Under the pieces are notes generated by a model. That model did no database searches. It saw nothing but the letters and a program-made list of their open reading frames with translations, and was not told the origin of the DNA. A program made the translations under genes and the position numbers. Source: Naegleria gruberi (lineage: Eukaryota). From it: DNA of 64,000 nucleotides. Below are positions 5,126-59,532 of this stretch, piece after piece; position 1 is the first letter of the stretch, and every line of letters starts with the position of its first letter. The DNA is taken from NCBI GenBank assembly GCA_000004985.1, contig GG738859.1. The stretch is one strand, 5' to 3'.

Positions 5126-5198
5126 GCCGACATAGCTCAGTTGGGAGAGCGTAAGACTGAAGATCTTAAGGTCCCTGGTTCGATCCCTGGTGTCGGCA
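5126..5198 (+). tRNA. tRNA-Phe (anticodon GAA)
   Basis: GCCGACATAGCTCAGTTGGGAGAGCGTAAGACTGAAGATCTTAAGGTCCCTGGTTCGATCCCTGGTGTCGGCA. Acceptor pairs 7/7, anticodon loop CTGAAGA, T-loop GGTTCGATCC, followed by a TTTT run. Confidence 0.9.
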
Positions 5199-5271
5199 AA
5201 TTTTAACACCCAAAACTTTTAATTCAAGTTAAAATAAATTTATTCAATCAATTTTTGTAAATAAAAGAAAA

Positions 5272-6207
5272 ATGAGTGACAACAATCACAGCCAGCAGGA
5301 GGAATTTGCCAACAATATCCAACATCAACCGGATATCATTCAACAACAACAGCAACCAAACAATAACTTTTCCAACGATGTACCATCATCATCATCATCA
5401 GGGTCATCGGATTTTTACATAAATAATTCTTCATCACCAATGCAGGACAATATGTTCATGGATAATTCATCATCATCATTTAATATGAATTATATGCCAC
5501 CTTCTTTTAATAATCAATTTAATCCGAATCAAATATATAATCAAGCTGCTAATCAATTTTCGCCACAACCAAATAATAATATGAATTTTATGAATCCAAC
5601 AGTTTATGCTCCACCAATGAATCAAAATCCACAAACATTACAGGAAATGATTGAACAAAAAAGTAATTATATTCCACCAGAGAAACGAGTTGTCAGACCA
5701 TTACCATTATCTCCATTCATGGAAGGATTTGATTCAATGGAACAAATTCAAAAACAATTGGCTATTAAGAAAGCTATTGAAACAATGACTGAATCATGTG
5801 TTTCTAAATCTGCTTTTGCAGCTGTTGCTGGTACAGTTTTGGGAGGTGCTTTTGGTATTATTAGTGCCAGTTTTACACTTGAAAATACATATATGAAAAC
5901 TCCACAACAAATTATTCGTGAAGAATCAATGACAGGAAGGGAGAAAGTGAGAGAATACTTTAGAGAAACAAAGAATAGATGTGTCAGTATGGGTAAATCA
6001 TTTGGTGCTGTTGGTGCTTTATATAGTTTCTTTGAATGTAGTTTGGAGAAGGTGAGAGGTAAGAAAGATGTTAAGGGAAGTTTAATGGCTGGTTGCATTT
6101 CTGGTGCTGTTCTGGCTAGAAAAGCTGGTATTGGTCCAATGATTTTAGGTTGTGCTACATTCAGTGCTTTCAGTGGTGCTATTGATTATTACACTGAATA
6201 TACTTAA
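5272..6207 (+). CDS. Tim17/Tim22/Tim23-family mitochondrial inner-membrane translocase subunit (Tim23-like) with a long N/Q/S-rich N-terminal extension
   Basis: The C-terminal ~150 aa carry the family signature AVAGTVLGGAFG...GALYSFFECSLEKVRGKKDVKGSLMAGCISGAVLA...GPMILGCATFSAFSG (G/AxxxG helices plus the RGxxD motif). The N-terminal 150 aa are low-complexity Q/N/S. Confidence 0.6.
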   Translation: MSDNNHSQQEEFANNIQHQPDIIQQQQQPNNNFSNDVPSSSSSGSSDFYINNSSSPMQDNMFMDNSSSSFNMNYMPPSFNNQFNPNQIYNQAANQFSPQPNNNMNFMNPTVYAPPMNQNPQTLQEMIEQKSNYIPPEKRVVRPLPLSPFMEGFDSMEQIQKQLAIKKAIETMTESCVSKSAFAAVAGTVLGGAFGIISASFTLENTYMKTPQQIIREESMTGREKVREYFRETKNRCVSMGKSFGAVGALYSFFECSLEKVRGKKDVKGSLMAGCISGAVLARKAGIGPMILGCATFSAFSGAIDYYTEYT

Positions 6208-6372
6208 TTAGTAAAAAGAGTTTAAATTTTGTTTCACTTTGGACTTGAAAGATTATTTTGGTGCATTTTCATAAATAAGCACTCTGCTGAGTTCCACAAA
6301 CAACTTTATCAATAAGGTTTACTTGTTTCCTTTCGCTACTTTTTTGAGAGAATTCAAATCAGCTAAAAAAAT

Positions 6373-7050
6373 ATGATACACGAAAGTCCAACATATTCAA
6401 ACGATTCCTCACCAAGTGCTCTAGTGTTGGCTGATTCACAATTTAGTTCCTCCCCAATTGAAACAGAAGAGGAAAAGTACATTCAACAGCAATACATTAA
6501 TAGGAAACTGAAAAAAGAAGGAATAACAACAGGTAATCAATTTCTTTCTAGATTTTCAGAGAAACACTCAACGCAACAATGTCTATTAGGTTGCATTATC
6601 ACATCAGGATTGATTTGCTTTTCCTTGTTTTGCATGGGAATTGTCCTATTGTTCATTTTCAGTGTTGTTTCGTTTACAATAATCGATTATGGAAATTACA
6701 ATTTTCAAAAAACATGTTCAGTGTTGGATATTTCATGTAATGATAGTCAACTGTGTAGAGGAATTTTGTCGTACGGAGGAAAGAATTATACAAGTCAGGA
6801 TGAATATCCACTCGATTGTAATGTTTGGAAAGAAGTAAGAAAGGGAATTTCAGTACCATGTTATTTTAACAAGGCAGAAAAGCTGTCAATGCTCTATCCA
6901 CTAGTTGTCTTTGATGATTGGTCACTGCTTATTTCCTCCTCCTCATTGATGGTATTGGTTCCAATAAGTGGTCTGATATGTGCAATCCTCATGATTTGTT
7001 CAGTGAAACATGGAAATGTGTGGGGTAAAAATAGCAAGATAAACAGGTAG
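6373..7050 (+). CDS. Hypothetical membrane protein (two predicted TM helices, Cys-rich loop)
   Basis: 225-aa ORF with a real ATG at 6373 in an AAAAAATATG context. Hydrophobic stretches CLLGCIITSGLICFSLFCMGIVLLFIFSVV and LMVLVPISGLICAILMIC. No family recognised. Confidence 0.4.
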   Translation: MIHESPTYSNDSSPSALVLADSQFSSSPIETEEEKYIQQQYINRKLKKEGITTGNQFLSRFSEKHSTQQCLLGCIITSGLICFSLFCMGIVLLFIFSVVSFTIIDYGNYNFQKTCSVLDISCNDSQLCRGILSYGGKNYTSQDEYPLDCNVWKEVRKGISVPCYFNKAEKLSMLYPLVVFDDWSLLISSSSLMVLVPISGLICAILMICSVKHGNVWGKNSKINR

Positions 7051-7137
7051 TGATTGGTTCATCCACCTTCTGAGAAGATTATTTCCAATAAGAATTAAAT
7101 CTTGAATATTTTGAATTTGTGTGTATATTTACAAAGA

Positions 7138-7638
7138 TTAATTAACATAGTCCATCAAATCATCATTATCAGCTGTTACATCAACGTGTTCCTGTAACGT
7201 TTCAGCATTTACATGTTGCACCTTTGTTGGAACAACAGGAGAATATGTTAATACTTCATCATCCAAATCCAAGACATCATCTTCATCATCGTCATGTCTC
7301 TCAGGTTCTTTAATTCCTAATTTTCTCCTTATATCACCTAAAGCCTTTGTAATAAATTCCAAATCACTTTTCATTTCCTTCATCATGAATTGATGAATTT
7401 GAAAATCCTTTTGAATATTTGGCAACTCTATCGAGCATTTATCATTAATTTGTTGTAATTGTTCATTGGTATGTTTCATAGCCTTGACAGCTTCTACTTG
7501 CTTAGCATGAATTTGTTGCATATCTGTTGGGTGAAGAGCAGCATTCATAATACTGTCCACAAATAATTTACTTGTCGATGACGATTGTTGTTGCTGATCA
7601 ACTTGTTCCGAAGTTGATGAAGATAATATTTGACTCAT
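7138..7638 (-). CDS. KXD1: KxDL-motif protein (KXD1 / BORCS4-like coiled-coil protein)
   Basis: 166 aa. FVDSIMNAALHPTDMQQIHAKQVEAVKAMKHTNEQLQQIN...QFMMKEMKSDLEFITKALGDIRRKLG aligns with human KXD1 (FCGRILSMVNTDDV...[22 protein letters not shown]), including the K-x-D-L motif. It starts only 45 bp downstream of the fimbrin stop. Confidence 0.55.
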   Translation of the reverse strand: MSQILSSSTSEQVDQQQQSSSTSKLFVDSIMNAALHPTDMQQIHAKQVEAVKAMKHTNEQLQQINDKCSIELPNIQKDFQIHQFMMKEMKSDLEFITKALGDIRRKLGIKEPERHDDDEDDVLDLDDEVLTYSPVVPTKVQHVNAETLQEHVDVTADNDDLMDYVN

Positions 7639-7683: not shown

Positions 7684-9273
7684 TTATTTCTTCTTATGAG
7701 AAAGGAGCATGAGGGAAGCAACAAAACTTAAAATCATCTTCTTCTTAACTTCAACAATATCTTCCCACAATAAGAAAACAACAGCACCAATCTTTCTGGC
7801 AACTGAAATGGCATACTTGGCATTTTGTTCCTTATCATCAGAAATCATTTCAAGGTTACAAGATTGTGGTGAAATAGCGTGACACAAATTGATCAAGAAA
7901 ACACCATCAGTCAATGATGAATCTTCAAATGATGAAATAGTAGTGTGACCAACAGTCTTGTTAGCCCATTTGAGAACGTCATCTTCACTAACAGCCTTAC
8001 CACCACCAAGATTTTTCAAAGTATCAAGGAGTGAAATCTTCATCAATTGCCAGACGACAGCCAAAACAAGTTTCTTGTTACCATCATTAATATCCTTTCC
8101 TGAAATGTTATTGACCTTAACACCAATATGTTCAGAAGCAGCAACACAAACATTACAATTTCCAACAGCTTGGAAAACATTTCTTGGATACTTTTCAATC
8201 TTCTTTCCTTCAAGACATCCTGGTTTAATCTTTTCCAAAATTTCAGCAAACATTCTTCCATCACGCAAATCATCGAACAAGTTAGCAACGTTAACTCCCA
8301 AACTTTGAATCCAGAAAGTGAAAGCTCTTTCTTCTCTAGTACCTTCACCATCCAAATCCAAAAGATTTGCATAATCAGTCATATCCTTAGGAGCTTCAAG
8401 AGCTGGCCTTGTGTTGAAAAGGTTGGCAACAAAGGCAAGGTTGAGCTTTGAATTACCCTTAACAACATCAAGTGGTTTGACGAGTTTTCTACAATCAATC
8501 TTGGCAGCTTCATTCAACATCTTATCAGCTCTCTTTTCCATATCAGATTCATTCAATGGTGATAAAGTACAACATTCTGGAGCAATTTGCTTCAAGAGAC
8601 GAGTATAAATTTCAGAGTCTGTAACATCGGATGAAAAGTTGGTGATTTTTCTTGATGATCCACTCTTATCCATATGATAGTTAACCCATCTCATAAGAAT
8701 TTCTTCAGTTGGTAATTTAATAAAGCTTTCCAAAGATTCACCTTCCTTCAAGAGGAGAACCAATTCAGGATGGTGCTTGATTGAAATATCCTTAGTAAGA
8801 CATCTCTTAAGAACTTGCCACAATAATCCTAGGACAATGTGTGGTAGACCTTCTTGAATACTGGTTCTGGTAATGTTAACAGTTTTACAACCAATACCAG
8901 CAGCAGAGTTGATGGCCAATTCCAAGTTTTCATTAAGTTGCCATGGATTCAAATTTCCCTTCATGTTAATGACACGTTCGTCAATAGTTTGAGGAGAAGC
9001 AATATTAATTAATTTACTATTAACAATTACCAAAAAATCATCTCTGTTTAAAAAAACCTACCAAAAGATGATACCATCCTTAAGTTTATCAAACAAAGCT
9101 TCACTGTGAATAGGAAGCTTTGACTTGACATCCTTATCCTCTCTAAGTTCGTTGGAAATGTATTCAGAAAAACTTTCGACTTCAGCCTTATCGAATGAGT
9201 GAGTACCAGTTACACCACTCACTGAGGTAGTATTTTCAGAACGACTGGTAAGCTTTGCTTGTGTTGAGGACAT
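7684..9273 (-). CDS. Fimbrin/plastin (tandem calponin-homology actin-bundling protein). Exons 9273..9062 and 9016..7684, 45-nt intron at 9061..9017 (GTAGGT...TTAATAG).
   Basis: Exon 1 ends DKLKDGIIF. Splicing gives DGIIFCKLINIASPQTIDERVIN, matching human plastin [23 protein letters not shown]. The rest is collinear with plastin CH1-CH4 (NPWQLNENLELAINSAAGIGC, GLLWQVLK, LNLAFVANLF, ERAFTFWIQSLGV, LAVVWQLMK, YAISVARKIGA). No EF-hand exon was detected upstream. Confidence 0.85.
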
Positions 9274-12512: not shown

Positions 12513-15451
12513 ATGAGCACACATCATCGTAGTTCAAGTCTCCATCAGGAGAATAAAAAACACAAATCAAAGCACATCAGTAAGCGTCAATTAAAGAAGG
12601 AAAGTAAAGGTCGTGTTGAACATGAAGGTGGTCTCAAAGCATCTCAAATGAAGAAGACTCATCAAAACGCCAAAGCTCAACGTAAACAACGTGCTAAACA
12701 AGTTCGGGATAACAAGAAACAACAAATTTTATATAGACAACGTTTGGGAAGAAGTGGCAATCCACCAAGAATTGTCTCTGTCATGTCTTTGAGTGGACAA
12801 GGTATGTTGATGATTTAAATTTCCTCCGAGTTTTAACCGAATTAAAAGATGAAGGAGAAGTTGAAAGTGTATTTTCTGATATTATGAGTAGAAGTGAAGA
12901 ATTTGAAAGTGGAAAAATTAATTTGAATGATTTGGATTTTTCTAGTGTTCGTTCAATTCGGTAGGTAATCAAATGATAATTGACTAACCATTTCAATAGT
13001 CTTCAAAAGGAATTCCAACAAAAATCACTTACTCTCTTCTGTGTGAAACAAGCAAATTCTAGATCTGTTTTGGATGCTGCTAAAGTTTCCGATATTATGA
13101 TTTTTGTTCTTCCAGCTCAAAGTATTCAATTCAATGGTAATCAAGAACCATCCTTACATCCAACTGCTAAATATAATCTCTCACTTCTTAGAGCTCAAGG
13201 TTTACCATCTAGTATTGTCGTTTTACAAGGATTGAATCAAATTTCTCAAAAAAAGCAAAATGATGTGAAACAAGTTGTTAACAAGATTATGAAGGATGAA
13301 ATTCCAGACTTTGAAAAGGTCTTTTCATTGACTTCAACAACAAATAGTATGGATGATTCTGCCAATTTTGAAACTACCAAGACAGAAATGAAACAAATTT
13401 TGTTACGTTTGAATTCATTAACACCAAAAACTATCTATTGGAGAGAAAATCATCCATACATGATTGTGGAAAATCTTGAATTCATCAAGAAGGATCAATC
13501 TGAAATCAATGAATTATCAGATGAAAATAGTAATAATGGTACACTTGTTATTCGTGGATATTTACGTGGTAAACCAGCCAGTCCAAATCAACTTTTCCAT
13601 CTTGTCAATTATGGTACTTATCAATTGGATAAAATTGTTTTGGAAAAGGAAAATTCACATGCTTACTCAAAGAAGAAACAACAAGGTTCTAGTTCAAATG
13701 CAATGGAAGATGACAAGGTTGGTACTAGTCAAATGAGTACAACTGCTGATTCCAATGAACCAAAAACCTTGTTACCAGATGAAAAGCAAGAATCTCTTCA
13801 AACTGCTCTTGAACCAAATCTTATGGATGGTGAACAAACCTTGCCAACCAAGGAAGATTATGAAATGGAATTGGCTAACCAAATTACTGAAAAACAAGCT
13901 GGTTATGTTTACCATAAGAAGGTTGTTCCAAAGGGTATGACTCCAACTGAAGCTGCTTGGATTATTGACCATTTGGAAGATGCTGAAGAAGACCAATCCG
14001 ATGAGGAAGAAGATGAAATGATTGATGAAGCCAACAGAGCTGTTGCTGCTGATGAAGAAGAAAGACGTGTCGATTTCAATTTTGATATTGCTTCTGAAGC
14101 TCAAACTCATATTGAAAAACACTTCAACTTGGACGAAATGGATGAAGATATGACTGAAGAAGAAAGAATTGCTGAAATGATGCGTGCCATTAAATCCAGA
14201 AAGGAGATGAAGAATGAAATGGATTATCCTGATGAAGTTGATACACCATTAGATATTCCAGCTCGTGTCCGTTTCCAAAAATACAGAGGTTTGAAATCAT
14301 TCAGATCTTCACCATGGGATGCTGAAGAAAATTTACCATTGGATTATTCACGTATTTTCAGATTTAAGAATTTCCAAACATCTCAAAAGCTTGCTTTGGA
14401 AGGTTTTGATCCAGAAAATGATTACAATTTATGGGAAAATTATATCACTCTCCACATTGCTAATGTTCCAGCCAACATGTGTGAAGTTATTCAACAAAAG
14501 AAGGAACCACTCATTGTCTTTGGTTTACTTAAACACGAACAAAAGACCAGTCTTGTCCATTTACTTGTAAAGAGAACTAACGACTCAGTTGTTGTTAAAC
14601 AATCAACAAGTTATGATCCATCTGATAATATTACAAAGATGATTGAATACCATCCTCAAGAAGACGATGATGGTGAAGAAGAGCCAATACCTGGTGCTGA
14701 AGTTGAAGAAAATCCAATCAAATCTAAGGATGAACTTATTATTCAAATTGGTTTCAGAACATTTAAATGTAATCCTATTTATTCGGAACATAATCCTAGA
14801 AATGATAAGCACAAATACGAAAGATTCTTTGCTCCATATCGTTTCCTTATTGCCACAGTGTATGCTCCAGTAACCTTTAAACCTGCACCTGTTTTAATGT
14901 TCCGAAGGAATAATAAGAATACCATGTCACTTGTTGACAATATGATTGTACAAACTGAACCATCACAAACTCTTGATCAACCAAATCTTGACTTTGTTGG
15001 TCATGGCACAGTTCACGGTGTTGATCCATACCGTAGAGTTATTAAGAAGATTATTCTTACTGGTCACCCTTACAAACTTCATAAGAATCAAGTTGTTGCT
15101 CGTTACATGTTCTTCAATCCAGAAGATATTCGTTGGTTCAAACCAGTTGAAGTTTATACTAAATATGGTAGACATGGTATTATCAAAGAAGCTGTTGGTA
15201 CTCATGGTTATATGCGTTGTTTATTCGATGATATTGTCCTTCCAAAGGATACTATTTGTATGAATTTATACAAGAGAGTTTTCCCAAAGTGGACCACAGA
15301 GAGTTCATCCCTGTTAGCAGGTCCAACTATTTCAATTCCTCGTCCACTTAAACAAACTACATCATCTGGTGGTGCTTACCTCAATGAAGAAGCAATTAGA
15401 AGATTGGGTATTATGTCCAAATCTGAAGAATTAGAAATGATTGAAGACTAA
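12513..15451 (+). CDS. TSR1: Ribosome-biogenesis protein TSR1. Exons 12513..12801, 12831 or 12849..12960, and 13000..15451. Intron 1 is 12802..12830 or 12802..12848; intron 2 is 12961..12999.
   Basis: N-terminus MSTHHRSSSLHQENKKHKSKHISKRQLKK...PPRIVSVMSLSGQ matches yeast/human Tsr1. Intron 1 starts GTATGT at 12802, with two in-frame acceptors (CCGAG at 12830, AAAAG at 12848). Intron 2 is GTAGGTAATC..TGACTAACCATTTCAATAG (39 nt). Exon 3 carries the large Tsr1/AARP2CN body (GYLRGKP...HKYERF...GHGT..GVDPYRRVIKKIILTGHP..LHK...RYMFF..EDI.WFK...GRHGIIKE..GTHGYM). The track ORFs 12513..12818 and 12980..15451 are the two ends of this gene. Confidence 0.8.
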
Positions 15452-23051: not shown

Positions 23052-23209
23052 CTATCCATGTCTTAATAAAAGAATATTCTATTTTTGACAGCTATCATTT
23101 GTTTTCATCATTCAATACAACTGAGTCACCTTACAAAACTTTCCCGCCAAAATAAACTTTTTCATTTGAAAATTATTACAGTTAGGGAGTTTAAAACAAC
23201 AACAAAAAA

Positions 23210-24343
23210 ATGTTCCCATTTACCGACGTTGAGACAAAGGAAAGATTGGCTATCGAGAAGAGAAGACAAGCAGAAGAGGAAAGAAGGAAGAGAATTCTTG
23301 ATCCAAAGGCAAGAACAATGGGTTTAGATGTTGCTGGTATACAATCACAAATTGAAGAAAAGGAGCAAATAAAGAAGCGAGAACAAGACCGTGATAGATA
23401 TTTCGACCAAGCCTCCCTTGTTCATGCAAAGGTTGCCAACATTATGGAGAAGGAAATGCATCAAACTAAAAAACAAGTTTATAAGGAAGTCAATGATTTT
23501 AGAAAAAACGAACAGTTACCTCATACAAGAAGGGAATTTGATTTAAATGATCCTGATGAATTGAAAAAGAGTAGACCAATCAGAGTTGGTGACTATGATC
23601 CTAGCTTGACGATTTCAGGAGGGCAAATTATGCACGGAGAGGACTTGGGTCGTGAAGAAAGACTTAAAGCTCAGCAAGACCAATTGAAGTGTTGGGTCTC
23701 AGAACAAGTCAATGAAAAACAAATGGTAAAGGAAAAGGAAGATTTGGAAAGAAAATTATTCGAGCAAAAGGAATTGGAAATTCAAAGATTGACCTATGAA
23801 TTAAGGGAAAAAGAGAATATGATAAAACTTGAAAAGGAAAGAGAAAGAAAAGAATTCAACGTTGAACAATGGAATGACAAGGAAGAGAAAGAAAAGCTTC
23901 AAAGAGAGAAAGAAGAATTAGATAAATTAGAAGAAATACAGAATCAACTCAATAGTCATCTCCTTAATGAGGCATTCCACACAACTCTCAATGTTAATGA
24001 TCCTAATAGATTTAGACCAGATCACTTCAAGCATATGAGACCAGATCAATACGAACACATTGAACAAGTAAGACAAGAACAACTCAGAGAATTACAACAA
24101 AAGAGAGATACGGAAAGTTTAAATCAACAATATTGGGATAAGAAACGTTTGCTTGAAACAAAGATGGCAGGCTTACAATTAAGAGAACAAGAACGAGCAA
24201 AGAAGCAGCAAGCAGCTGAACTTTTAGAATTACACAAAAGGCAAGCTGAAGAAAAGAAACAAAAGGAAAAGTTTGTAAATCAAGTGTATGCTAATGAGGT
24301 CACAGAGGATTTTTTCAATCGTTTTGGAACAAGCAGTCGTTAA
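23210..24343 (+). CDS. RIB43A-like ciliary/flagellar protofilament-ribbon coiled-coil protein
   Basis: 377 aa. N-terminal RILDPKARTMGLDVAGIQSQIEEKEQ (the RIB43A IGVDV..L..QV.EK signature), repeated E/K/R-rich coiled coils, C-terminal ...FFNRFGTSSR. Confidence 0.6.
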   Translation: MFPFTDVETKERLAIEKRRQAEEERRKRILDPKARTMGLDVAGIQSQIEEKEQIKKREQDRDRYFDQASLVHAKVANIMEKEMHQTKKQVYKEVNDFRKNEQLPHTRREFDLNDPDELKKSRPIRVGDYDPSLTISGGQIMHGEDLGREERLKAQQDQLKCWVSEQVNEKQMVKEKEDLERKLFEQKELEIQRLTYELREKENMIKLEKERERKEFNVEQWNDKEEKEKLQREKEELDKLEEIQNQLNSHLLNEAFHTTLNVNDPNRFRPDHFKHMRPDQYEHIEQVRQEQLRELQQKRDTESLNQQYWDKKRLLETKMAGLQLREQERAKKQQAAELLELHKRQAEEKKQKEKFVNQVYANEVTEDFFNRFGTSSR

Positions 24344-27772: not shown

Positions 27773-29089
27773 TTACTTTTTCTTTTTAAGTGGAGAGCCA
27801 GATTTTAGAATCTTTTTCTTCTTTGGCTCAATTGATGGCGCTCTAGGTTTGCTTTGTGGTTGTTGTTTGCTTAGGGCAGGTGTTGTGTTTTTAACTAAGG
27901 ATCTCAGTTGGCCTAGTTCCTTTCCATGATGATTGATATCCTTCATGAGATCCATCATCTTTTGCTTGTAGTCTTTGAATTCATTGTTACATTCTTCTTG
28001 GAGTTTTTCAAAATCCTTCAATCTGGTTATGGAATGGGTGTTAGAAGTGTCTGTGTCTTCAGCTCCTGAAATTTCGAGTTGAGAAAGGTCTTCTTTTTTT
28101 CTTCTTACAACAACAGTACTACTGACGTTGTATTCGACCTCATCCTTCTTTTGATCCTTAGTTGGAGGGTGAGATAAATTAGGGGAATGATTTGTTTTTT
28201 GTTTTGATATTTCTACTACAGCCTTTTTGAAACGTCTCTTCTTTCTCTTAATTGTGCTACAGGATGATCCACATTCAGACTCTTCAAGTGAAGAATCAGA
28301 ATCAGAGTCTGTATCATCACTTGAATTGCTTGAATCCTCTATATGTGATTGAGATGTTTCATTCAGCTTGGGTGATGCCATCTTTGGTTCGGCTTTTCTA
28401 AAGAGTGGTTTAATACTATCAGATGTTTCTCTAACCTCTGAATCTCTTGATTTCGTTGAATCTCTTGTTACTCTTGAGCCACCATTGATATTTGGAGAGG
28501 GGTTCATTACATTATTAATGCTCTCTAAATGTTCACATCTTCTTTGGAGCCTTTCATTCTCTTTCTTTTCATTGTCAACTGTTTTCCTGAGCTCGATTAT
28601 CTTTTCTTCAAACATTTTCTCTCTTTTCATTATTTGATCCTTTAGCTTTTCATACTCTTCAGAAAACTTGGATTTTTGTTTTTCGGCTATCAACTGCAAT
28701 TTCTTTGATCGTTTTCTTTCTTCCTCATATTTGATTTTGTACTGATCTAATTGCTCTTCGACTGTTTTTTTAAGATTCAAAAACTTGGCTTCATATTCCT
28801 CAATCCTTTTTTCGCTTTCTAATTTCTGATCCCTTAGTTGACTTTCACTCTTGAGCAACTCTTTTACTCGTTGATTGTATTTTTCCTCTTCCTGCAATAT
28901 GATGTTTTCTTTTTCATTACTTAGATTAACAAGGGTTTGTCGCAGTTCTTGATAGTTTCTTGCCATATCTTTGGATTCACTTTCCAACTCCTTGATTTTT
29001 TCCTCTTTTTCCATGTAGCTTCGTCTTTCCTCTTCAATTTTCTTTGAGAGGGCTTCCAAGGTATCGTGTTGTTGTTGAATTCTGTTCAT
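27773..29089 (-). CDS. Coiled-coil protein (438-aa ORF). Probably the 3' exon of a single gene joined to ORF 29117..30760 by a 39-nt intron.
   Basis: K/E-rich heptad-repeat sequence. Only 27 bp separate its ATG from the upstream ORF's stop, and a frame-preserving intron can be drawn across that gap (see finding). Confidence 0.55.
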   Translation of the reverse strand: MNRIQQQHDTLEALSKKIEEERRSYMEKEEKIKELESESKDMARNYQELRQTLVNLSNEKENIILQEEEKYNQRVKELLKSESQLRDQKLESEKRIEEYEAKFLNLKKTVEEQLDQYKIKYEEERKRSKKLQLIAEKQKSKFSEEYEKLKDQIMKREKMFEEKIIELRKTVDNEKKENERLQRRCEHLESINNVMNPSPNINGGSRVTRDSTKSRDSEVRETSDSIKPLFRKAEPKMASPKLNETSQSHIEDSSNSSDDTDSDSDSSLEESECGSSCSTIKRKKRRFKKAVVEISKQKTNHSPNLSHPPTKDQKKDEVEYNVSSTVVVRRKKEDLSQLEISGAEDTDTSNTHSITRLKDFEKLQEECNNEFKDYKQKMMDLMKDINHHGKELGQLRSLVKNTTPALSKQQPQSKPRAPSIEPKKKKILKSGSPLKKKK

Positions 29090-29116
29090 GTTAGAATTAA
29101 ATTAACATATGACAAC

Positions 29117-30760
29117 TTACTGACTAGTTAATTTTTCATTTTTCTCTTTTAGTTCCTTGGATTTAACCTTATGGTTTTTAACTGTTTCATCAATCTTTTG
29201 TGAAAGCTCTTCATTATATTTCCTCAAATCATTGACTTCTGTTCCTAGCTGCTCAGCATGTTTTTTAATTTCCCTAGAGTGATTTAACAATTCGTCATAT
29301 CTCTTTCTAATATTTACATAAGATTTTTCCTTTTCCTTCCATTCAGTCTCCTTTTCCTTAAGAGTTTTTTGAAGTTGATTTGCTTCGTCTGTTTTGGCTT
29401 GTAATTTTTGTCTTAGTTGCAAAAGCTGCTCGTTTTGCTTCTTTGTTTTTGAACTTAAATCTGCTGACTCATTGCATGATGTTATTATTCTCTCATTCCA
29501 TTCCTTTTCTTTTTGTTTGAACTCTATCCATTTCTCTTCGTATAAACCTCTAAGTGCTTGGAGTTCTAAATCTTTTTCTCGTTCAATAGTTGAGGTTCTT
29601 TCTTCGTGAGCTTCAAGAAGTGCTTCATACTCCACAACTTGATTTGATAGAGATGCTAGTCTTCGTTCATAATCTCTTAACAAAACATCTTTCTCCAGAT
29701 CTCTTTTCTTCTTTTCCACTCGAACTCGATCATCCTCAATTCGTTCTGGTTGTTGGTTGATTGGCCTTTGCTTTTTGGTTTGTGGTTGAGTTTCCTTAGC
29801 CTTAGGTAATTTAGGAGCAATTATTGGAGAAACATCACTAGGTTCAGGGCTTGCAAAAGTAACATTGGGGGTTATTTTTTTTTGAGCTTGGTTTTCAGCT
29901 ACCACTTGTTGGGCAATTTCTGAAACAACGGCCTTTGGAGGAATTTTAGTTTCTGTTGAAGCTTTTACAGAAACAGGTCTTGTTTTCATTGTATTTACAT
30001 TGTCTTCAGTTTCTGTTAACTCAATTTGAGTTGTTTCATCGTCGCTACATTGAGAAATGTCATCAAATGTGAATGGTGTTGCACCCTGTTTTTTTCTTTC
30101 TTCGTTTTCCCTTCTATGTTTCTCCAGTAGTTGATTTACTGATGTTGGTGGTTTAGAAACTACTTGTTTCTTGGGTATGTATTGCTCTTCCTCCTCCTCT
30201 TCCTCAATGTCTGTGTTTTCAATTTGATCATCCTCTGTATCGCAATAAGTTTCTATCACAACTTGTTTGCGATTAGTATTATTTAGTTTTTTGCCTGGTT
30301 TAATTTCTTCAACATCCTCAATTAGAACGCTGATATCACTGTTTTCATCATGAGATGATTGAAGCAGATCATCTTGTATTGAGGAGAGACTCTTCATCTC
30401 TGCTTGCATTTCTCTCAGTGAGGAAAAGATGGCTGATGGTTTGATCAGTTTTTTGTTTCCTTGTTGTTCGTGACAAGAATCTACCATTACTGGAGATTCC
30501 ATGTCTGTATTTTCCTCTTCCAAATATTCATCTTCATCATAATGTTGATTCTCCTCATCATTAATTTCCGTATATTTAAATAATTTTGTTTTTGATGTTC
30601 GTATTGATGATGTATTTTCGATTGAAGGGGTTTTCTTCCTTAGTGATGATACATTTACTTTTTCCTTGTTAATCTGAGAGTGAGTGGTATTGGGCGAAAG
30701 TGTTGTTTGTCTTATTGATGAGCCAAGCACTCGTTTTGTTTGTTGAGAATTTTCATACAT
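29117..30760 (-). CDS. Coiled-coil protein (547-aa ORF). Probably the 5' exon (30760..29121) of the same gene as 27773..29089.
   Basis: ATG at 30760 in an AAAAAAATG context. S/T/E-rich N-terminal half, coiled-coil C-terminal half. Its stop TAA is embedded in CA|GTAAGT, a canonical donor. Confidence 0.55.
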   Translation of the reverse strand: MYENSQQTKRVLGSSIRQTTLSPNTTHSQINKEKVNVSSLRKKTPSIENTSSIRTSKTKLFKYTEINDEENQHYDEDEYLEEENTDMESPVMVDSCHEQQGNKKLIKPSAIFSSLREMQAEMKSLSSIQDDLLQSSHDENSDISVLIEDVEEIKPGKKLNNTNRKQVVIETYCDTEDDQIENTDIEEEEEEEQYIPKKQVVSKPPTSVNQLLEKHRRENEERKKQGATPFTFDDISQCSDDETTQIELTETEDNVNTMKTRPVSVKASTETKIPPKAVVSEIAQQVVAENQAQKKITPNVTFASPEPSDVSPIIAPKLPKAKETQPQTKKQRPINQQPERIEDDRVRVEKKKRDLEKDVLLRDYERRLASLSNQVVEYEALLEAHEERTSTIEREKDLELQALRGLYEEKWIEFKQKEKEWNERIITSCNESADLSSKTKKQNEQLLQLRQKLQAKTDEANQLQKTLKEKETEWKEKEKSYVNIRKRYDELLNHSREIKKHAEQLGTEVNDLRKYNEELSQKIDETVKNHKVKSKELKEKNEKLTSQ

Positions 30761-30811
30761 TTTTTTCTTATTGGCGGGAAATTTTTGGCGCCAATTAACT
30801 ACACATATTTA

Positions 30812-32269
30812 TTATTGAAAATGTGAAGGGTACTTTGCCAAATAGGATTGAAGTGATTCTTGAATTTCATCAGTAAGTGATTCAAGTAGAATTTTTTTCT
30901 GTTCTCCAGATTCCATATTCTTAATTGAAATTTTACCTCCCTTCAATTCATCCTCTCCAATAATAATTGTGAGGAGTGATTTACTTTGTTGGGCTTGTTT
31001 CAATTGTTTTGATAAATTTCCCTTCTCAAAATAATTGATTGTAATGCCTTGTTTACGTAATTGTTGGGATAGAATAATAGCAAATTTAGACATTTCCTGA
31101 TCAATAGCTTCATTTGTGCCTCTGACGACTGAAACGAATACTTTTGGAATGTATTCTGGTTGAGGTTGAGTATTTCCCTTTTCCAGTTCTTCCATAATTA
31201 AGGAAAGTCTTTCAAATCCACTAGCCCAACTAGTTAGATGTTAAATTTTGAAATATTTTGTTAATATCAAAACAGAGTTAACTTACCCAACAGCTGGAAT
31301 TTGTTGATTGGCTCCTAATTGTTGAGATAATGTATCATAACGCCCACCTGCGAGAATGGTTGATTTGGCACCAATAACATTGCTCTTAAATTCAAATGTT
31401 GTATGGGTATAGTAATCAAGACCTCTAATAAGAGATGAGTTAATCTTGTATGGAATTTTCAACCATTTCAATCCTAAAAGTACATTTTCAAATCGTTTTC
31501 TATTTTCCTCACTTTGAAATTGAGCTAATTGGGGCATATCATGTTTTTCAATCAAATTTGCAATAAAATCTTCATCCTGTTTAGAGTCGAGAATTCTCCA
31601 AATTCTTCTTGGATTATTTTCTGCAATGGCAATTTCAACTCTAGCTCTACTGTCCTTTGAAAGATTTTCCTCCTGATCAAATAATTCCTTATTCTTTTTA
31701 ACATATTCTAAGAGAGCATGTTGATAATTTTCACGTTCTTTCAAAGTTCCAATAGAGTTAATTTCCAATTGAAATACATCATTTCTACCATCAAGAACAT
31801 TTGTTAAAAATTGATAAGCCATTTCCAAAGATTCCAAATCACTTTGATAATGATCACTTCCTAAATATTCCACTCCAAATTGATGAAATTGACGATATCT
31901 TCCTTTCTGTGGTCTTTCGTATCTAAACATTGGTCCATAATAGTAAATTCTTTGTTTTGTTGAGAGAGCATTTTCGATAACACTTCTCATAATTGGTGCT
32001 GTTCCTTCAGGTCTCAAACATAACTTATTTCCTTCAATAGCATCACGTGATGAGAGAATAAACATTTCCTTTGATATAATATCAGTGTCGGCTCCGAGAG
32101 TTCTCTCGAATAATTTTCTCTCCTCTACGATTGGAGTTTGTGCAAATTGATAATCGAATGTCTTTGCTGTTTGTTCTCCGACTCTAATAATTTTTGAATA
32201 GCACTTGGTTGAAAATTGTGAAGGAAGGAAATCAGCCATTCCTTTCACACACTTCGTATGATACGACAT
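30812..32269 (-). CDS. Histidyl-tRNA synthetase, bacterial type. Exons 32269..31287 and 31229..30812, 57-nt intron at 31286..31230 (GTAAGT...TCTAACTAG).
   Basis: CVKGMADFLP, PIVEERKLFERTLGADTDIISKEMF, CLRPEGTAPIMRS, GPMFRYERPQKGRYRQFHQFG (HisRS motif 2) and GGRYD are collinear with E. coli HisS. Splicing gives IPAVG|WASGFERLSLIMEEL (E. coli TPAVGFAMGLERLVLLV). The track ORF 30812..31195 is the anticodon-binding-domain exon. There is no WHEP domain or obvious presequence. Confidence 0.85.
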
Positions 32270-36403: not shown

Positions 36404-38316
36404 TTATAAAACCCATTCCCACTCACTGGCTATGTTAAAATCAACTTTCCCAAAGAAATCAATTTTCTGTGGCACAAAGAATGTCAAAATATGATCAATT
36501 GACTCATAGATTCCATCTCCAGTGAGTGCACAACCTGCTTGTATGTACCATTTTCTATCTGTTATGCTGTTCAGATTCAAATCATTGGCGATATTGGCGC
36601 AAGATGCAGCACTGAAGAAATCCTGCTTATTACAAAACACAACAATTGAAGTTTTCTTTGGAATACTTTCCAAAACAGTCCAAAGTAAATCTTTGGCTTG
36701 ATTCATTCTGCCAGTGTCTGTAGAATCAACAACAAATATTACAAAATCTGCTTCTTGTGCATAATCTTTCCACAAGTTGGCTAATCCACCAAAATCTTTC
36801 TATTCAAATATTAAATTAAGATGGTAAAAAATAAATTACTTACAATTGTAAAGTCAACATCTTTGTAATTAATCATTTGTGTGTTAAACTTATCAGTTGG
36901 AATAGTTAACACAACTTCACCCAAATACCACTTGTACAGGAGGGTTGTTTTACCACCACCATCAAGACCAATTAAAAATCCATTCTTTTTGGTTCGTTTC
37001 TTCTGTTTCTTCTCGAGGACCTTAATTTCTTGGAGACCCAATAGTTCTTTTGGAACTCCTCTTACGTGCAGAAGTGATTTGAGCATAATATCCTTCAGTT
37101 GATTTTTGGCAGATGTGAATAAATCTTCCTTTCCAAGATTTACAAAAATTGAAAAGAATGGAAACAAAATCTCATCATCATTAATTTTTGAAAAATCAAT
37201 AAACTCGAGCACGAATTTGTAAGCTTCCTCAAATCTTGCTTCATAATCTGTAACCACCCAAAAAATCAAAAAGTAAGTGACAGCCATCAAATCACCATTC
37301 GACAATAAACTCAATAGAATTTGTTTTAGCAACTCGAATGGCATTCTTCCAATCACCTTGTAATGAGCGTATTTGCTAACAACATAGCTAATCATTGCAT
37401 GCAAATCTTTCTCTGTAAATATTGGAACATGTTGCATCAAAGTTTGTTTGAATAACTTCTTGTCCTTTGTTGAATAACAACTGAGATCCTCTTCGAGCTC
37501 TGTATAACCAACCTTTCTATAAATTGGATCACATATAATGCAAGATGGTTGTGCAGAAATAATTGGAATAGTCTCTTCATAAATTATTGATTTGCAATCT
37601 TCAGATAATTCAATGGATGCAAGTGAAATAGTGAGAGCATTGTAGGCATTACAAACTTTGGAAATGGATTTTGTTAAACTCTCAACTTGATATTCATCTG
37701 CGATTTGTAGCAAACCTATTAAATCATCCATTTTAACAATAATTTCACTTTCTGATTTTGATTCGAATGTTAACTTATCAGAACCCAAATATCCAATGTG
37801 CACATAGTCAATCATCCATTCAAAATACTTATCAGATGTCTCAAGTGTCATTTCACTTGTTCTTGCTTCAATCATTTCACTATTTAACATTCTCTCAAAA
37901 ACTTTGCATTCTCTGGAAAGTATTTTCTTGGAAACTTGTAAATTGACCTTTCTATTAGGAATGCTAATATTGAATACATCTTGTTCATCAGTATTTTCAC
38001 TTTCGTATTTCACCAAAATGAAACCAACACCATTATTTTCAATTTTCTTTTTTACTTGATCGGAAGAGGCAACATTTTCTCTTCTCAGATAATAGCCGAT
38101 ATTTTGCTGAATGTAATCTATCAGAGAGGTGTTGATACCATAATTACTAACGAAACCTTTCCAATAACTTTCAAAATTGGTTGGAGGTACAACATCAGAT
38201 TGCATACCAAGAATATAATTCTGATCGAGTTCGGGAGAAATACAATACCAATGCGAGAGATTTTTAATTTCTTCTGTGTTGGCAATGGTATAATCAATAA
38301 TATCTTGGTTGATCAT
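36404..38316 (-). CDS. BTB/POZ-domain protein with a C-terminal ARF/ARL-type small-GTPase domain. Exons 38316..36844 and 36799..36404, 44-nt intron at 36843..36800 (GTAAGT...TTTGAATAG).
   Basis: Exon 1 contains a BTB-like segment (VNLQVSKKILSRECKVFERMLNSEMIE...LIGLLQIADEYQVESL) and ends with the ARF P-loop and switch I (FLIGLDGGGKTTLLYKWYLGEVVLTIPTDKFNTQMINYKDVDFTI). Exon 2 continues KDFGGLANLWKDYAQEADFVIFVVDSTD...VVFCNKQDF...WYIQAGCALTGDGIYESIDHIL. Switch II has Leu in place of the catalytic Gln. The track splits the gene into ORFs 36811..38316 and 36404..36775. Confidence 0.7.
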
Positions 38317-54127: not shown

Positions 54128-56232
54128 ATGGCAAGCGATGATTTAAAGTTCTACCTCACTCACGACAGCCCTCGTACAGCCTTGAAGGGAGTTTTCAACA
54201 CACTTTCAAAGGAAACGGCTTCATATAGTGAGTGTGTGCAATCGTTGAATCAGCTTGCTTCTAAATTATTCGGATTTGGAAATTCTGGTACACCTTGGAT
54301 TGTACTTGCAGAGAATGATGAAACCATGTATGAATACGTGATCAACTTATTAGAACCGGAAGGACCACTATTTAAAATGTTTTTTAGGAATATGGGAGAT
54401 GTTTATCAAAACACTTATTATTACCCTGTTGGAGGATTATCATTTGGAATGCGAACCTTTACTGCGGAACTTAAAGATAAGAAGAATAGTGATGCTAGTA
54501 GTTTATTGGGGATATATGTTAATACACCTGTATTTAGGTATTTCAATGAAAAGATTAAAACTATGGGAGATGGTAAAAATATTCAAGTGAGTGAGTATCA
54601 TCATATTAGAATATTAATATTAATAATTTTAAGACATGTTCGAATATTTTCTATTTTGTTTTTTCTACTTTATCATGACAAATAATAAGATGAGTTTTAA
54701 AACAGAGCAAAAGATACCAAGAACATCCGATACTGATAATTTTGCTGTAAGTTTCATCTAATAAGTGTTCACTAATTTTCAAAAGGGATTTTTATCGAAA
54801 TTGGCACCAATCCGTCCAGAAGCTTCAAGGCAATCAAGCAAAAAGCCACCTACTACTTTCTTGTTTAGCAAATATTTAAATTTCTTCTTCCCTTTAGAAA
54901 AGAGAAAAGATTACAAGAGAGAAATTTCGAATACTTTCTTATTTATTTTGACAGACTTTTTATTTAATCAAATGATTGAACGAGCAGGAAATTATTCTGT
55001 ATGTAGTGAACATTTATGCTTTATTAACCTTGGAAAAGTTTTCTACTGAAATGAACGAGAATGCTACCAAGTTTACATATTTCACATCTGTGACAGTTAA
55101 ACATTTATTAAGACTAGGAACTATTGCAGATAATATGAAATCTATTAATGAATTGACACTAGCAGCTAATTATAGAGATAATGCTTCATCTAAATTGGAA
55201 CCATACTCAATAGTGCAATATCCAGCATACAGATTTTTGAAAACCATGTTTATTGGATTGAAAAATGACAAGATATTCCCTATGAAATACTCTTTGAGTT
55301 TGTGGAAGGCCCTTCTTTGTCCTTGGAGGACAGATCAGGGACAAAATACTCCTTGGCCATTTTATATGATAGCCAATTGGTGCTTTTATTCATCTTTGTT
55401 TTCCCATTTCATGAATTGTAGATTCCCATCTGATGTTTATAATACTTCACTTGTTGATCTTGAAAGTATTTCTGATTTGTTAGATATATTTTCTGAATCA
55501 AATACTTTGGAAATTTTGAAAGGAATCAATAACATGATAGAATCTTCTGAACTACAAGAAGGCGCTTTAGTTTCACACATGAAGCATTGTGGCGAAAATA
55601 GGTTCACCTCTTTAATTTTCAGTGATAATCTCACTAAAATTGTTCAATTCAAGATTGGAGAAATTCAAGTTACCACATCCCAACAAATGAGCAGCTCACC
55701 AAGAATTAAGAATCTCTTCACAAAAGGAACCAAGTCGTTACGAAGTGATTTCGATACCAGAATCAAGCTGATGAAAAAGCTTTCCTCTAAACTTGCCCTC
55801 ATTTTCTCAGACCTTCGTGATTTTGATGTAACCAAAACACCATCAATATATTCTCCTAGAAGCTTTATTGATACACCACAATCAGTTTCAGATTTTTACG
55901 CTCAAGAGGAGTTGCAGGGTAGTGCATATCATGAGGAGTATCAGTCAATGAAAAAACTCACACCTATTGGAATAGATCTTGTTGTTACAGGAAAGCACAA
56001 ATGTGACAAGATGGATGTTTGCTTTAATAAGAAGGCTATTTACAGACCTATAGAATCCAATGAAATTTCTTGGTTAGTTGTTCCATTAATCAAACTCTCG
56101 GAAAAGTACGCACAAAAATATGGAAAAGGTGTTGACTTTAGAATTTTTGCTAATGTTTCTAATTTACTTTTTATTTTGGTAGTGATATTATTCTTGTACT
56201 TGATTTTTGTATTAATAACTTATTTTTATTAA
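54128..56232 (+). CDS. SMPD4: SMPD4-like (neutral sphingomyelinase-3 family) tail-anchored membrane protein. Exons 54128..54586, 54690..54746, 54786..54998 and 55039..56232.
   Basis: Exon 1 ...YVINLLEPEGPLFKMFF (human SMPD4 VMEFLDPGGPMMKLVY) ends at GTGAGT. There is a 57-nt micro-exon MSFKTEQKIPRTSDTDNFA. Then intron GTAAGT..CACTAATTTTCAAAAG (39 nt) and intron GTATGT..TTATTAACCTTGGAAAAG (40 nt). Exon 4 has WKALLCPWRTDQGQNTPW (human WLSYLQPWRY) and a C-terminal TM anchor LLFILVVILFLYLIFVLITYFY. The track shows the fragments as 54068..54685, 54765..55049 and 54976..56232. Confidence 0.6.
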
Positions 56233-59070: not shown

Positions 59071-59532
59071 TTGTAGAATATCTATTGATGGTCGGGAAAA
59101 TTGTTGTTTAAGGCTTTTTTTTAAAGTTGGTTTTCATCACAACGGCTCGATCTTTTCACTACAGTCCATCATCGCGAGACAATAATATCATGTAATGGTT
59201 CTGTGTATAACGTTTTTTGTGCTGTTGGTGAGATAGATTTTTGTAGGATTAAGAATCGAGTTCCTTGAAGAACCGTTTCAAGAGGTAAAAAGACAATCAC
59301 CTTAGAATGGAGGAGTTATTAAGCAGTTTGATGAAAGAATTTGCCTTAGTTCAGTGTTCTTCATCATTAACGATGACATACGAATACTGTTCGATTCTGT
59401 TATTGGTTTTTCAGCTTGTTTCCTTCTAACTCCTTTTTCTTTCTGGATTGTTCTAATCGTTCAATCCCGCCAAGTTTATTGTTAAACTTTTTAAATTTAA
59501 AACTATGAATGGCGGGAAAAACTGTTAAAAAA

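What the first reader, a model, noticed from the sequence alone, without database searches (positions are those of the whole stretch)
27773..30760. Two adjacent coiled-coil ORFs are probably one gene spliced across a 39-nt intron that swallows the upstream stop and the downstream ATG
The stop of ORF 29117..30760 reads ...ACT AGT CA|GTAAGT.., so the TAA lies inside a perfect GTAAGT donor. 39 nt downstream is TTCTAACATGAACAG|AATTCAACAACAAC, giving a TCTAAC branch-type motif, a CAG acceptor, and an ATGAAC that is the annotated start of ORF 27773..29089.

Splicing 29120..29082 is frame-preserving (...T S Q I Q Q Q H D T L E...). It has the same length and signals as the verified introns in this window and would yield a ~983-aa coiled-coil protein. 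The alternative is two genes only 27 bp apart on the same strand. That is possible in this compact genome (fimbrin and KXD1-like are 45 bp apart) but less likely given the perfect signals.
Basis: seen in the sequence. Interest (0 to 1): 0.5.

Follow-up and report, generated by a model that had tools for sequence, protein, structure and literature searches.

The report
One spliced Naegleria coiled-coil gene
The two neighbouring reading frames are two exons of one ordinary gene of the amoeba Naegleria gruberi, joined by removing a 39-base intron, which matters only as a gene-model correction.

Summary
The window is Naegleria gruberi NEG-M. ORF 30760..29117 and ORF 29089..27773 (minus strand) are joined by a phase-2 GT-AG intron at 29120..29082 (39 nt: GTAAGT donor containing the TAA, TCTAAC branch motif, CAG acceptor). 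The product is a 982-aa coiled-coil protein.

The decisive evidence is comparative.
- In N. fowleri and in a third Naegleria-like metagenome contig, an intron sits at exactly the same codon and phase but is 47 nt and 38 nt long.
- In both relatives the two ORFs are in different frames, and conserved codons lie upstream of the first ATG.
- The public N. fowleri gene model (BRAKER1 with RNA-seq) already removes that 47-nt intron.
- A more distant relative encodes both halves in one uninterrupted 800-aa ORF.
- The ATG of the downstream ORF lacks the genome's AAAAAATG start context and is not conserved.

One caveat applies: the CAG acceptor is the weakest signal, so the signals are good but not "perfect". 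This is an ordinary spliceosomal intron. The only new points are that the gene seems absent from the N. gruberi proteome held in the protein database, and that the protein has no known family. No transcript data could be examined.

The parts
29121..30760 (-). Exon 1 of the coiled-coil gene. The ATG is at 30760..30758 and the exon ends with CA of a split CAA codon.
   Evidence: ORF listing. The start context GAAAAAAATG is typical of this genome. It is homologous to N. fowleri P0003 and to P0006 residues 208-320.
29082..29120 (-). 39-nt phase-2 GT-AG spliceosomal intron. It contains two in-frame TAA codons (29119..29117 and 29104..29102) and the incidental ATG at 29089..29087.
   Evidence: Sequence. 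Frame restoration. PWM score within the range of 15 other window introns. Position and phase are conserved with 47-nt and 38-nt introns in L002 and L004.
29115..29120 (-). 5' splice site GTAAGT, which overlaps the apparent stop codon TAA of ORF1.
   Evidence: The donor PWM score of 10.7 is among the best in the window. N. fowleri has the same CA|GTAAGTTG.
29090..29095 (-). Branch-point-type motif TCTAAC. Its branch A lies 9 nt before the 3' splice site.
   Evidence: Other window introns carry YTRAY-type motifs such as GACTAAC, TATTAAC and TCTAAC. N. fowleri has TGTAAC at the equivalent place.
29082..29084 (-). 3' splice site CAG. Its AG is the first AG after the branch motif.
   Evidence: This is the weakest signal: the acceptor PWM score is 0.1, and the 15 other introns have T or A at -3.
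27773..29081 (-). Exon 2, which starts with the A that completes the CAA codon. The stop TAA is at 27775..27773, in the usual TAAA context.
   Evidence: The C-terminal motif LKDFEKLQEECNNEFKDYKQKM..HGKELGQLR and the SPLKKKK tail are conserved in L002, L004 and P0006.
30772..30797 (-). Probable promoter element of the whole gene: two E2F-type TTTSSCGC motifs (TTGGCGCCAAAAATTTCCCGCC) inside the 51-nt spacer between the HisRS stop and the ATG.
   Evidence: The window has 5 matches against 1.17 expected, and two of them are here. A similar TTGGCGCCCAAA..AAATTTCCCTCC lies upstream of the N. fowleri orthologue. The function is inferred, not tested.

Best explanation
ORF 30760..29117 and ORF 29089..27773 are exon 1 and exon 2 of one Naegleria gruberi protein-coding gene. 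The primary transcript starts upstream of the ATG at 30760. The U2-type spliceosome removes the 39-nt intron 29120..29082 (GTAAGT ... TCTAAC ... CAG, phase 2). This deletes the TAA that seems to end ORF1 and the ATG that seems to start ORF2.

The mRNA encodes a 982-aa protein with these regions:
- a disordered acidic/serine-rich N-terminus;
- a coiled coil of about 400 aa that runs straight through the splice junction;
- a disordered S/D-rich and basic (KRKKRRFKK) region;
- a conserved C-terminal helix;
- an SPLKKKK tail.

Shown: the sequence signals, the frame restoration, conservation of intron position and phase with varying length in two other species, and a fused intron-less homologue.

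Inferred: actual splicing in N. gruberi. Also inferred: an unspliced transcript would terminate at the TAA in the donor, as expected for 3n introns carrying stops. A cell-cycle or nuclear role is a weak guess based on the E2F-like promoter motifs, the NLS-like basic stretch and the S-P-x-K tail.
For: Signals and frame:
- Sequence signals and frame are confirmed.
- Intron length and signals fall within the range of 15 other introns in the window. Two of those are verified by Pfam domain continuity.

N. fowleri (L002 = L003):
- The intron 9112..9158 is 47 nt, CA|GTAAGT..TGTAAC..ATAG|A, in the same codon and phase.
- ORF1 and ORF2 are in different frames.
- The spliced product is 1012 aa with no internal stop, and 9 conserved codons precede the first ATG.

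Third species (L004):
- The intron 669..706 is 38 nt, AA|GTATGT..AAAAG|G, phase 2, with the ORFs in different frames.
- 6 conserved codons precede the first ATG.
- The three spliced proteins align across the junction without any gap, while the intron interiors are diverged.

N. fowleri reference annotation:
- The gene at L006 7295..5140 is 2156 nt for a 702-aa product. 2156 minus 47 is 2109, which is 703 codons.
- My splice of the same 47 nt reproduces a 702-aa product.
- That annotation used BRAKER1 with RNA-seq (PMC6831594).

Distant homologue P0006 (and P0038):
- These are single ORFs of 800 and 936 aa.
- ORF1 422-531 aligns to P0006 208-320 (E 3e-9).
- ORF2 4-191 aligns to P0006 323-529 (E 1e-5), and ORF2 357-413 aligns to 618-673 (E 4e-10). 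P0006 reads IQQ at residue 323, as does exon 2 at its first residues.

Other support:
- The ORF2 ATG context scores -3.5, against a mean of -5.2 for all ATGs and mostly +3 to +9 for accepted starts.
- The heptad register is unchanged in windows spanning the junction.
- G-TAA-GT stops of long ORFs are otherwise only intron donors.
Against: - No transcript, EST or peptide evidence for N. gruberi could be examined.
- The acceptor (AACAG) is the poorest-scoring of the intron set, and none of 15 other introns has C at -3.
- An in-frame ATG sits only 4 codons after the last stop of the ORF2 frame. Under the intron model this is a coincidence of roughly 1 in 10 (my estimate from base composition).
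- Real tandem genes in this window are separated by as little as 51 nt (HisRS to this gene), so short spacing alone does not exclude two genes.
- The 99%-identical environmental strain (L001) is uninformative, because its intron is identical.
Confidence: 0.95

Rival explanations
1. Two independent tandem genes only 27 nt apart. ORF1 ends at TAA 29119..29117 and ORF2 is translated from ATG 29089. The splice-like signals are coincidental.
For: An ATG is present right at the start of the ORF2 open frame. The genome is very compact, with stop-to-ATG distances of 51, 65 and 91 nt for other same-strand pairs. Prokaryote-style gene callers report two proteins on metagenome contigs (P0001/P0002 and P0003/P0004).
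Against: - In N. fowleri and L004, conserved codons extend 9 and 6 codons upstream of the first ATG, up to the acceptor. The ATG position is not conserved.
- The donor, phase and position are conserved across three species while the intron interior and length are not.
- P0006 and P0038 carry both halves in one ORF.
- The N. fowleri BRAKER1 model splices them.
- The ORF2 ATG lacks the A-rich start context.
- No promoter-like motif precedes ORF2, whereas ORF1 has one.
Confidence: 0.03
2. One gene without splicing: the two in-frame TAA codons in the 39-nt spacer are read through or recoded. The two ORFs are in the same frame in N. gruberi, so this would add 13 residues.
For: 39 is a multiple of 3 and both N. 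gruberi ORFs share a frame. Only TAA codons interrupt the frame.
Against: In N. fowleri (47 nt) and L004 (38 nt) the ORFs are in different frames, so readthrough cannot join them. TAA is the normal stop of 36 of 42 long open frames in the window. The three spliced proteins align with no insertion at the junction.
Confidence: 0.01
3. The intron is real but regulated. Intron retention yields a truncated 547-aa N-terminal protein that stops at the TAA in the donor. ORF2 might also be translated from the intronic ATG by re-initiation, so both a fused product and separate products would exist.
For: The 3n intron carries an in-frame stop at its very first codon, and an ATG follows 27 nt later. The acceptor is weak, which could favour retention.
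Against: The ATG is not conserved in N. fowleri or L004, where no in-frame ATG lies in the intron. A stop in a retained 3n intron is the expected default and needs no function. No expression data are available.
Confidence: 0.08

Closest known systems
Annotated Naegleria fowleri ATCC 30894 orthologue (GCA_008403515.1, contig VFQX01000022.1; L006 7295..5140, 702-aa BRAKER1 model; by numbering probably FDP41_001182, with FDP41_001181 as the leftover 289-aa model)
   Same: Same gene: 52% protein identity over the full length. It has an intron in the same codon and phase with the same CA|GTAAGTTG donor. The public model splices it.
   Different: The intron is 47 nt rather than 39 nt, with a TAG rather than CAG acceptor, and the exons are in different frames. 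The reference model is cut short by a 1-nt A-run difference at L006 5211 relative to two short-read assemblies. The locus-tag assignment is my inference from tag order.
Other short GT-AG spliceosomal introns of N. gruberi in this window, for example HisRS 31286..31230 (57 nt) and the Arf-like gene 36843..36800 (44 nt)
   Same: GTAAGT/GTAGGT/GTATGT donors, YTRAY branch motifs and lengths of 39-58 nt. 3n members carry in-frame stops. The HisRS donor also hides the apparent stop (G|GTAAGT).
   Different: Acceptors are TAG or AAG in all 15. The candidate alone uses CAG and has a less A/T-rich 3' end.
Single-ORF homologues P0006 (800 aa, NCBI assembly GCA_037189345.1, organism not identified here) and P0038 (936 aa)
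   Same: Colinear matches to both halves, the same C-terminal helix motif and a basic KKKK tail.
   Different: Only about 26% identity. There is no intron at this site, the coiled coil is shorter and the N-terminus is different.
3n short introns carrying in-frame stop codons as a safeguard against retention (described for Paramecium and other short-intron eukaryotes; recalled from my own knowledge, not tested here)
   Same: The intron length is a multiple of 3, and it has a stop in the first intronic codon and a second stop 15 nt later.
   Different: No evidence here on nonsense-mediated decay or retention. My intron set was selected partly by requiring a stop or frameshift, so no enrichment can be claimed.

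Membership tests
U2-type GT-AG spliceosomal intron | 5' splice site matching the local consensus (GTAAGT/GTRNGT) | tested here: met
   GTAAGT at 29120..29115. The donor PWM score is 10.7, against 6.1-12.6 for 15 other window introns.
U2-type GT-AG spliceosomal intron | 3' splice site AG in the local acceptor context | tested here: inconclusive
   An AG is present and is the first AG after the branch motif. However, the acceptor PWM score is 0.1, below the range of 0.4-12.2 for the known introns. C at -3 is seen in none of 15 others.
U2-type GT-AG spliceosomal intron | Branch-point motif (YTRAY/CTAAC) shortly upstream of the acceptor | tested here: met
   TCTAAC at 29095..29090, with the branch A 9 nt from the 3' end. 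Comparable motifs occur in the other introns.
U2-type GT-AG spliceosomal intron | Length within the genome's intron size class, and removal restores one open frame | tested here: met
   39 nt, against 39-58 nt for the window set. The spliced CDS is 2949 nt with no internal stop.
U2-type GT-AG spliceosomal intron | Position and phase conserved in orthologues while length and interior sequence vary | tested here: met
   N. fowleri has 47 nt and L004 has 38 nt, in the same codon and phase 2. The exon flanks align and the interiors do not.
U2-type GT-AG spliceosomal intron | Physically absent from mature mRNA | not testable with these tools
   No read or cDNA data were accessible. The only indirect support is the RNA-seq-assisted BRAKER1 model of the N. 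fowleri orthologue.
Two independent tandem genes | The downstream ORF has a start codon in the genome's usual context, conserved in orthologues, and coding conservation begins at it | tested here: not met
   The context score is -3.5, no better than random ATGs. The first ATG lies at different places in the three species, and conserved codons precede it in two of them.
Two independent tandem genes | The halves occur as separate proteins in relatives | tested here: not met
   P0006 and P0038 are fused single ORFs. The N. fowleri reference model joins them. Separate 'proteins' appear only in ORF-based calls on metagenome contigs.
Stop-codon readthrough / recoding | Upstream and downstream ORFs share a frame in all orthologues | tested here: not met
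   They share a frame only in N. gruberi. The frames differ in N. fowleri and L004.
Any curated protein family (Pfam-A) or solved structure (PDB) | Significant sequence match | tested here: not met
   Pfam's best hit is E 0.11, below threshold. A profile of 4 homologues against PDB sequences gave 0 hits at E<=0.01.

The most novel reading that the evidence does not exclude
The spliced gene may be a conserved heterolobosean-specific coiled-coil protein that is missing from the N. gruberi reference proteome and mis-modelled in N. fowleri. Its promoter would be driven by E2F-type motifs, making it a candidate cell-cycle or mitotic (closed mitosis) component with no known family. Less likely, retention of the stop-containing intron would be used to switch between a full-length and a 547-aa form.
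Probability: 0.25. Interest if true: 0.3.

Novelty: new member of a known kind. Interest (0 to 1): 0.12.

Why it matters
The value is practical. It corrects or fills in a gene model in the model amoeboflagellate Naegleria gruberi. It also shows that ORF-based gene calls on eukaryotic metagenome contigs split this gene in two. It gives a worked example of a short intron whose donor hides the apparent stop and whose body holds an apparent start, which is a trap for annotation of compact genomes. It also flags a lineage-restricted 982-aa coiled-coil protein with E2F-like promoter motifs that someone studying Naegleria mitosis could test. It does not reveal any new mechanism.

Tried and rejected
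- Word-index protein searches with the spliced protein and with a junction-spanning 421-aa segment returned only ORF-level metagenome proteins. They found no annotated Naegleria protein. The first search also missed P0002, so absence from these searches is weak evidence.
- Exact-sequence look-ups of the spliced protein, ORF1 and ORF2 found nothing.
- Gene-position look-ups for N. gruberi proteins failed because the genome is not indexed. I therefore could not see how the N. gruberi reference annotates this locus.
- The 99%-identical strain contig L001 is too close to be informative.
- Pfam and PDB sequence searches gave no family. I did not run structure prediction, because a long coiled coil would return only generic matches.
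- A literature search for the assembly GCA_037189345.1 / JBBCKJ found nothing, so the organism of P0006 is unknown.
- I rejected the spacing argument (27 nt being too short for two genes) as evidence, because true tandem spacings here go down to 51 nt.
- I rejected claiming enrichment of stops in 3n introns, because my intron set was chosen partly by that criterion.
- One Pfam call failed on wrong coordinates and that side-track was dropped.
Full report
**What is in the sequence.**
On the minus strand, ORF 30760..29117 (547 aa) is followed after 27 nt by ORF 29089..27773 (438 aa). The junction reads ...ACT AGT CA|GTAAGTTGTCATATGTTAATTTAATTCTAACATGAACAG|AATTCAACAACAAC.

- The TAA that ends ORF1 (29119..29117) is inside a GTAAGT hexamer (29120..29115).
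- TCTAAC lies at 29095..29090.
- The ATG of ORF2 is at 29089..29087.
- CAG is at 29084..29082.

Deleting 29120..29082 (39 nt) joins CA to A as a CAA codon (phase 2). The result is one open CDS of 2949 nt, 982 aa, reading ...EKLTSQIQQQHDTLEAL....

**Source and context.**
The window is Naegleria gruberi NEG-M.

- The RIB43A gene at 23210..24343 is 100% identical to NAEGRDRAFT_83064.
- Several neighbours are exact matches to GenBank EFC463xx proteins.
- GC content is 33%, as published for N. gruberi (PMC8296547).
- TAA ends 36 of 42 long open frames, usually as TAAA.
- Accepted start codons sit in a striking AAAAAATG context.
- Genes are tightly packed. The HisRS stop is only 51 nt from the ATG of ORF1, and other same-strand spacings are 65 and 91 nt. 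The 27-nt spacing by itself is therefore not a strong argument against two genes.

**Introns of this genome.**
A scan for GT..AG intervals that join long open frames, plus inspection of all GTA[AGT]GT sites, gave about 15 other likely introns of 39-58 nt. They have GTAAGT/GTAGGT/GTATGT donors and YTRAY-type branch motifs, and their acceptors are mostly ATAG or AAAG. Two were verified independently:

- Splicing 31286..31230 (57 nt) makes the HisRS catalytic-domain match complete and places the anticodon-binding domain downstream.
- Splicing 36843..36800 (44 nt) makes an Arf domain continuous over 4-170 of 174 profile positions.

Two other introns are exactly 39 nt.

**Signal strength.**
I built a position weight matrix from the 15 other introns.

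| Measure | Candidate | 15 other introns (leave-one-out) |
|---|---|---|
| Donor score | 10.7 | 6.1-12.6 |
| Acceptor score | 0.1 | 0.4-12.2 |
| Sum | 10.8 | 9.1-21.7 |

- The candidate's donor is among the best and its acceptor scores below every other intron in the set.
- Only 58 of 8497 other GT..AG pairs of 35-60 nt in the window reach the candidate's sum.
- Among long frames ending in TAA, only three end in G-TAA-GT. The other two are intron donors.
- The signals are therefore good but not perfect, and they could not settle the matter alone.

**Start codon of ORF2.**
A matrix built from 23 accepted starts scores the ATG at 29089 at -3.5.

- This is close to the mean of all 2489 ATGs in the window (-5.2), and 36% of them score at least as well.
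- Most accepted starts score +3 to +9.
- Only three doubtful starts score lower.
- ORF1, by contrast, has GAAAAAAATG, preceded by two E2F-type TTTSSCGC motifs within its 51-nt upstream spacer. The window has five such motifs against 1.17 expected.

**Comparative evidence (decisive).**
An exhaustive HMMER search with the spliced protein found only six relatives, and their contigs were retrieved.

- **N. fowleri (L002 and L003).**
  - These two contigs are 99.99% identical to each other, and their neighbouring genes match FDP41_0011xx proteins.
  - The ORF1-like frame ends ...GAA CAG TAA, which is again CA|GTAAGTTG.
  - The intron 9112..9158 is 47 nt with TGTAAC and ATAG. The exons are in different frames.
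  - Splicing gives a 1012-aa protein.
  - The first in-frame ATG of the downstream frame is 10 codons after the acceptor. The nine codons before it (SCQQNETIK) align with IQQQHDTLE of N. gruberi.
- **L004 (JGI metagenome 3300002220).**
  - This is a third species, 54% identical.
  - Its intron 669..706 is 38 nt (AA|GTATGT...AAAAG|G), phase 2, with the exons in different frames.
  - Six conserved codons (NIQQID) precede the first ATG.
- **All three together.** The three spliced proteins align through the junction without a gap. The intron interiors do not align.

Readthrough or recoding of the two TAA codons is conceivable in N. gruberi, because 39 is a multiple of 3. It is excluded by the frame shifts in the other two species.

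**Independent annotation.**
The NCBI N. fowleri ATCC 30894 record (VFQX01000022.1, L006) carries a gene at 7295..5140 with a 702-aa product.

- The span is 2156 nt. Subtracting 47 gives 2109 nt, which is 703 codons.
- Removing the same 47-nt intron from that DNA gives a product that stops after exactly 702 aa.
- That annotation was made with BRAKER1 using RNA-seq (PMC6831594).
- The model ends early only because that long-read assembly has AAAA where two short-read assemblies have AAA (L006 5211). The rest is annotated as a separate 289-aa gene.

**Fusion evidence.**
P0006 is an 800-aa single ORF from NCBI assembly GCA_037189345.1. Its 936-aa cluster mate is P0038.

- ORF1 422-531 matches P0006 208-320 (E 3e-9).
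- ORF2 4-191 matches P0006 323-529 (E 1e-5).
- ORF2 357-413 matches P0006 618-673 (E 4e-10).
- The two matches abut. P0006 reads IQQ at residue 323, as does the first stretch of exon 2.

**Minor support.**
A simple heptad-register scan keeps the same best register in all 28-residue windows that span the junction (windows 532-559 to 588-615). The only register shift lies about 15-20 residues upstream of the junction.

**Rough weighing (my estimates, not a tool result).**
- Under two genes, a G-TAA-GT stop, a frame-compatible AG at 39-58 nt and a CTAAC-type motif together should occur in well under 1 in 1000 gene boundaries.
- Under one gene, an incidental in-frame ATG in the five codons after the last stop has about a 1 in 10 chance.
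- With the comparative data, I put the single spliced gene at about 0.95.

**What the protein is.**
No Pfam family reaches threshold, and a four-sequence profile finds no PDB relative. The conserved features are:

- N-terminal motifs SSIF.TLREMQAEMK.L, SSHDENSD and QLLEKHRRENE..R.QG.TPF;
- a coiled coil of about 400 aa;
- RRCEHLESI and SSTVVVR.K;
- the C-terminal helix LK.F.KL..ECN.EFKDY.QK...L..DI..HGKEL..LR;
- an S-P-L-K-K tail.

The E2F-like promoter motifs are conserved in arrangement upstream of the N. fowleri gene. With a basic NLS-like stretch and an S-P-x-K site, they suggest a cell-cycle-regulated nuclear or spindle protein. This is a guess.

**Annotation status.**
Neither the spliced protein nor either ORF is in the protein collection. 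No N. gruberi-labelled protein was returned for this locus, whereas most neighbours are present. UniProt and GenBank numbering leaves five identifiers (D2VA04-08, EFC46342-46) for at least six genes between TypA and the next matched gene. The gene may therefore be unannotated in the reference, but I could not inspect the record itself.

**Verdict.**
This is an ordinary short spliceosomal intron and a gene-model correction. It is low in novelty and interest, apart from a family-less conserved coiled-coil protein that may deserve a look by Naegleria cell biologists.

Noticed in passing
window 30772..30797 (also 23140..23147; L002 7374..7404): Two E2F-type TTTSSCGC motifs (TTGGCGCCAAAAATTTCCCGCC) sit in the 51-nt spacer upstream of the gene's ATG. 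The window has 5 such motifs against 1.17 expected. One is about 63 nt upstream of the RIB43A ATG. A similar pair lies upstream of the N. fowleri orthologue.
   Followed up: partly
window 27773..30760: No N. gruberi-labelled protein for this locus is in the protein collection, although 7 of 10 neighbouring ORFs tested are present in the collection and 6 of those fall in clusters with GenBank/UniProt N. gruberi entries. Identifier numbering (D2VA04-08, EFC46342-46) leaves five models for at least six genes, so the gene may be unannotated in the reference.
   Followed up: partly
L006 5211 (N. fowleri VFQX01000022.1), compared with L007/L002 and L003/L008: The N. fowleri long-read reference has AAAA where two independent short-read assemblies have AAA. 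This frameshifts the orthologue, which is annotated as a 702-aa and a 289-aa gene instead of one 1012-aa protein. It is probably a homopolymer error.
   Followed up: yes
L006 9703..14680 compared with L007 9703..14679: N. fowleri Med23 is annotated as two genes (1099 and 545 aa) in the reference, but it is a single 1658-aa ORF in the Logan and ENA contigs. This may be another assembly indel or model split.
   Followed up: no
window, all gene starts and stops (for example 30760, 27566, 32269, 36166): There is a very strong AAAAAATG start context. TAA accounts for 36 of 42 long-frame stops, mostly as TAAA. Both features are useful for judging gene models in this genome.
   Followed up: partly
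window 12802..12848, 54747..54785, 54999..55038; L004 669..706: Several likely introns use AAAAG acceptors, with A at -3. This is unusual for GT-AG introns. None of these was verified by homology, and alternative downstream AGs in the same frame exist for 54999.
   Followed up: no
L001 (ENA ERZ929261, run ERR1078381): An environmental metagenome contig is 99.05% identical over 3.7 kb to this N. gruberi NEG-M locus. This indicates a very close wild strain. Its intron is identical.
   Followed up: partly
window 59509..61321 (+): A multi-exon plus-strand gene has three short introns (59652..59695, 59957..60002, 60166..60211). Its ATG at 59509 overlaps a TTTCCCGC motif on the opposite strand. The identity of the gene was not established.
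   Followed up: no
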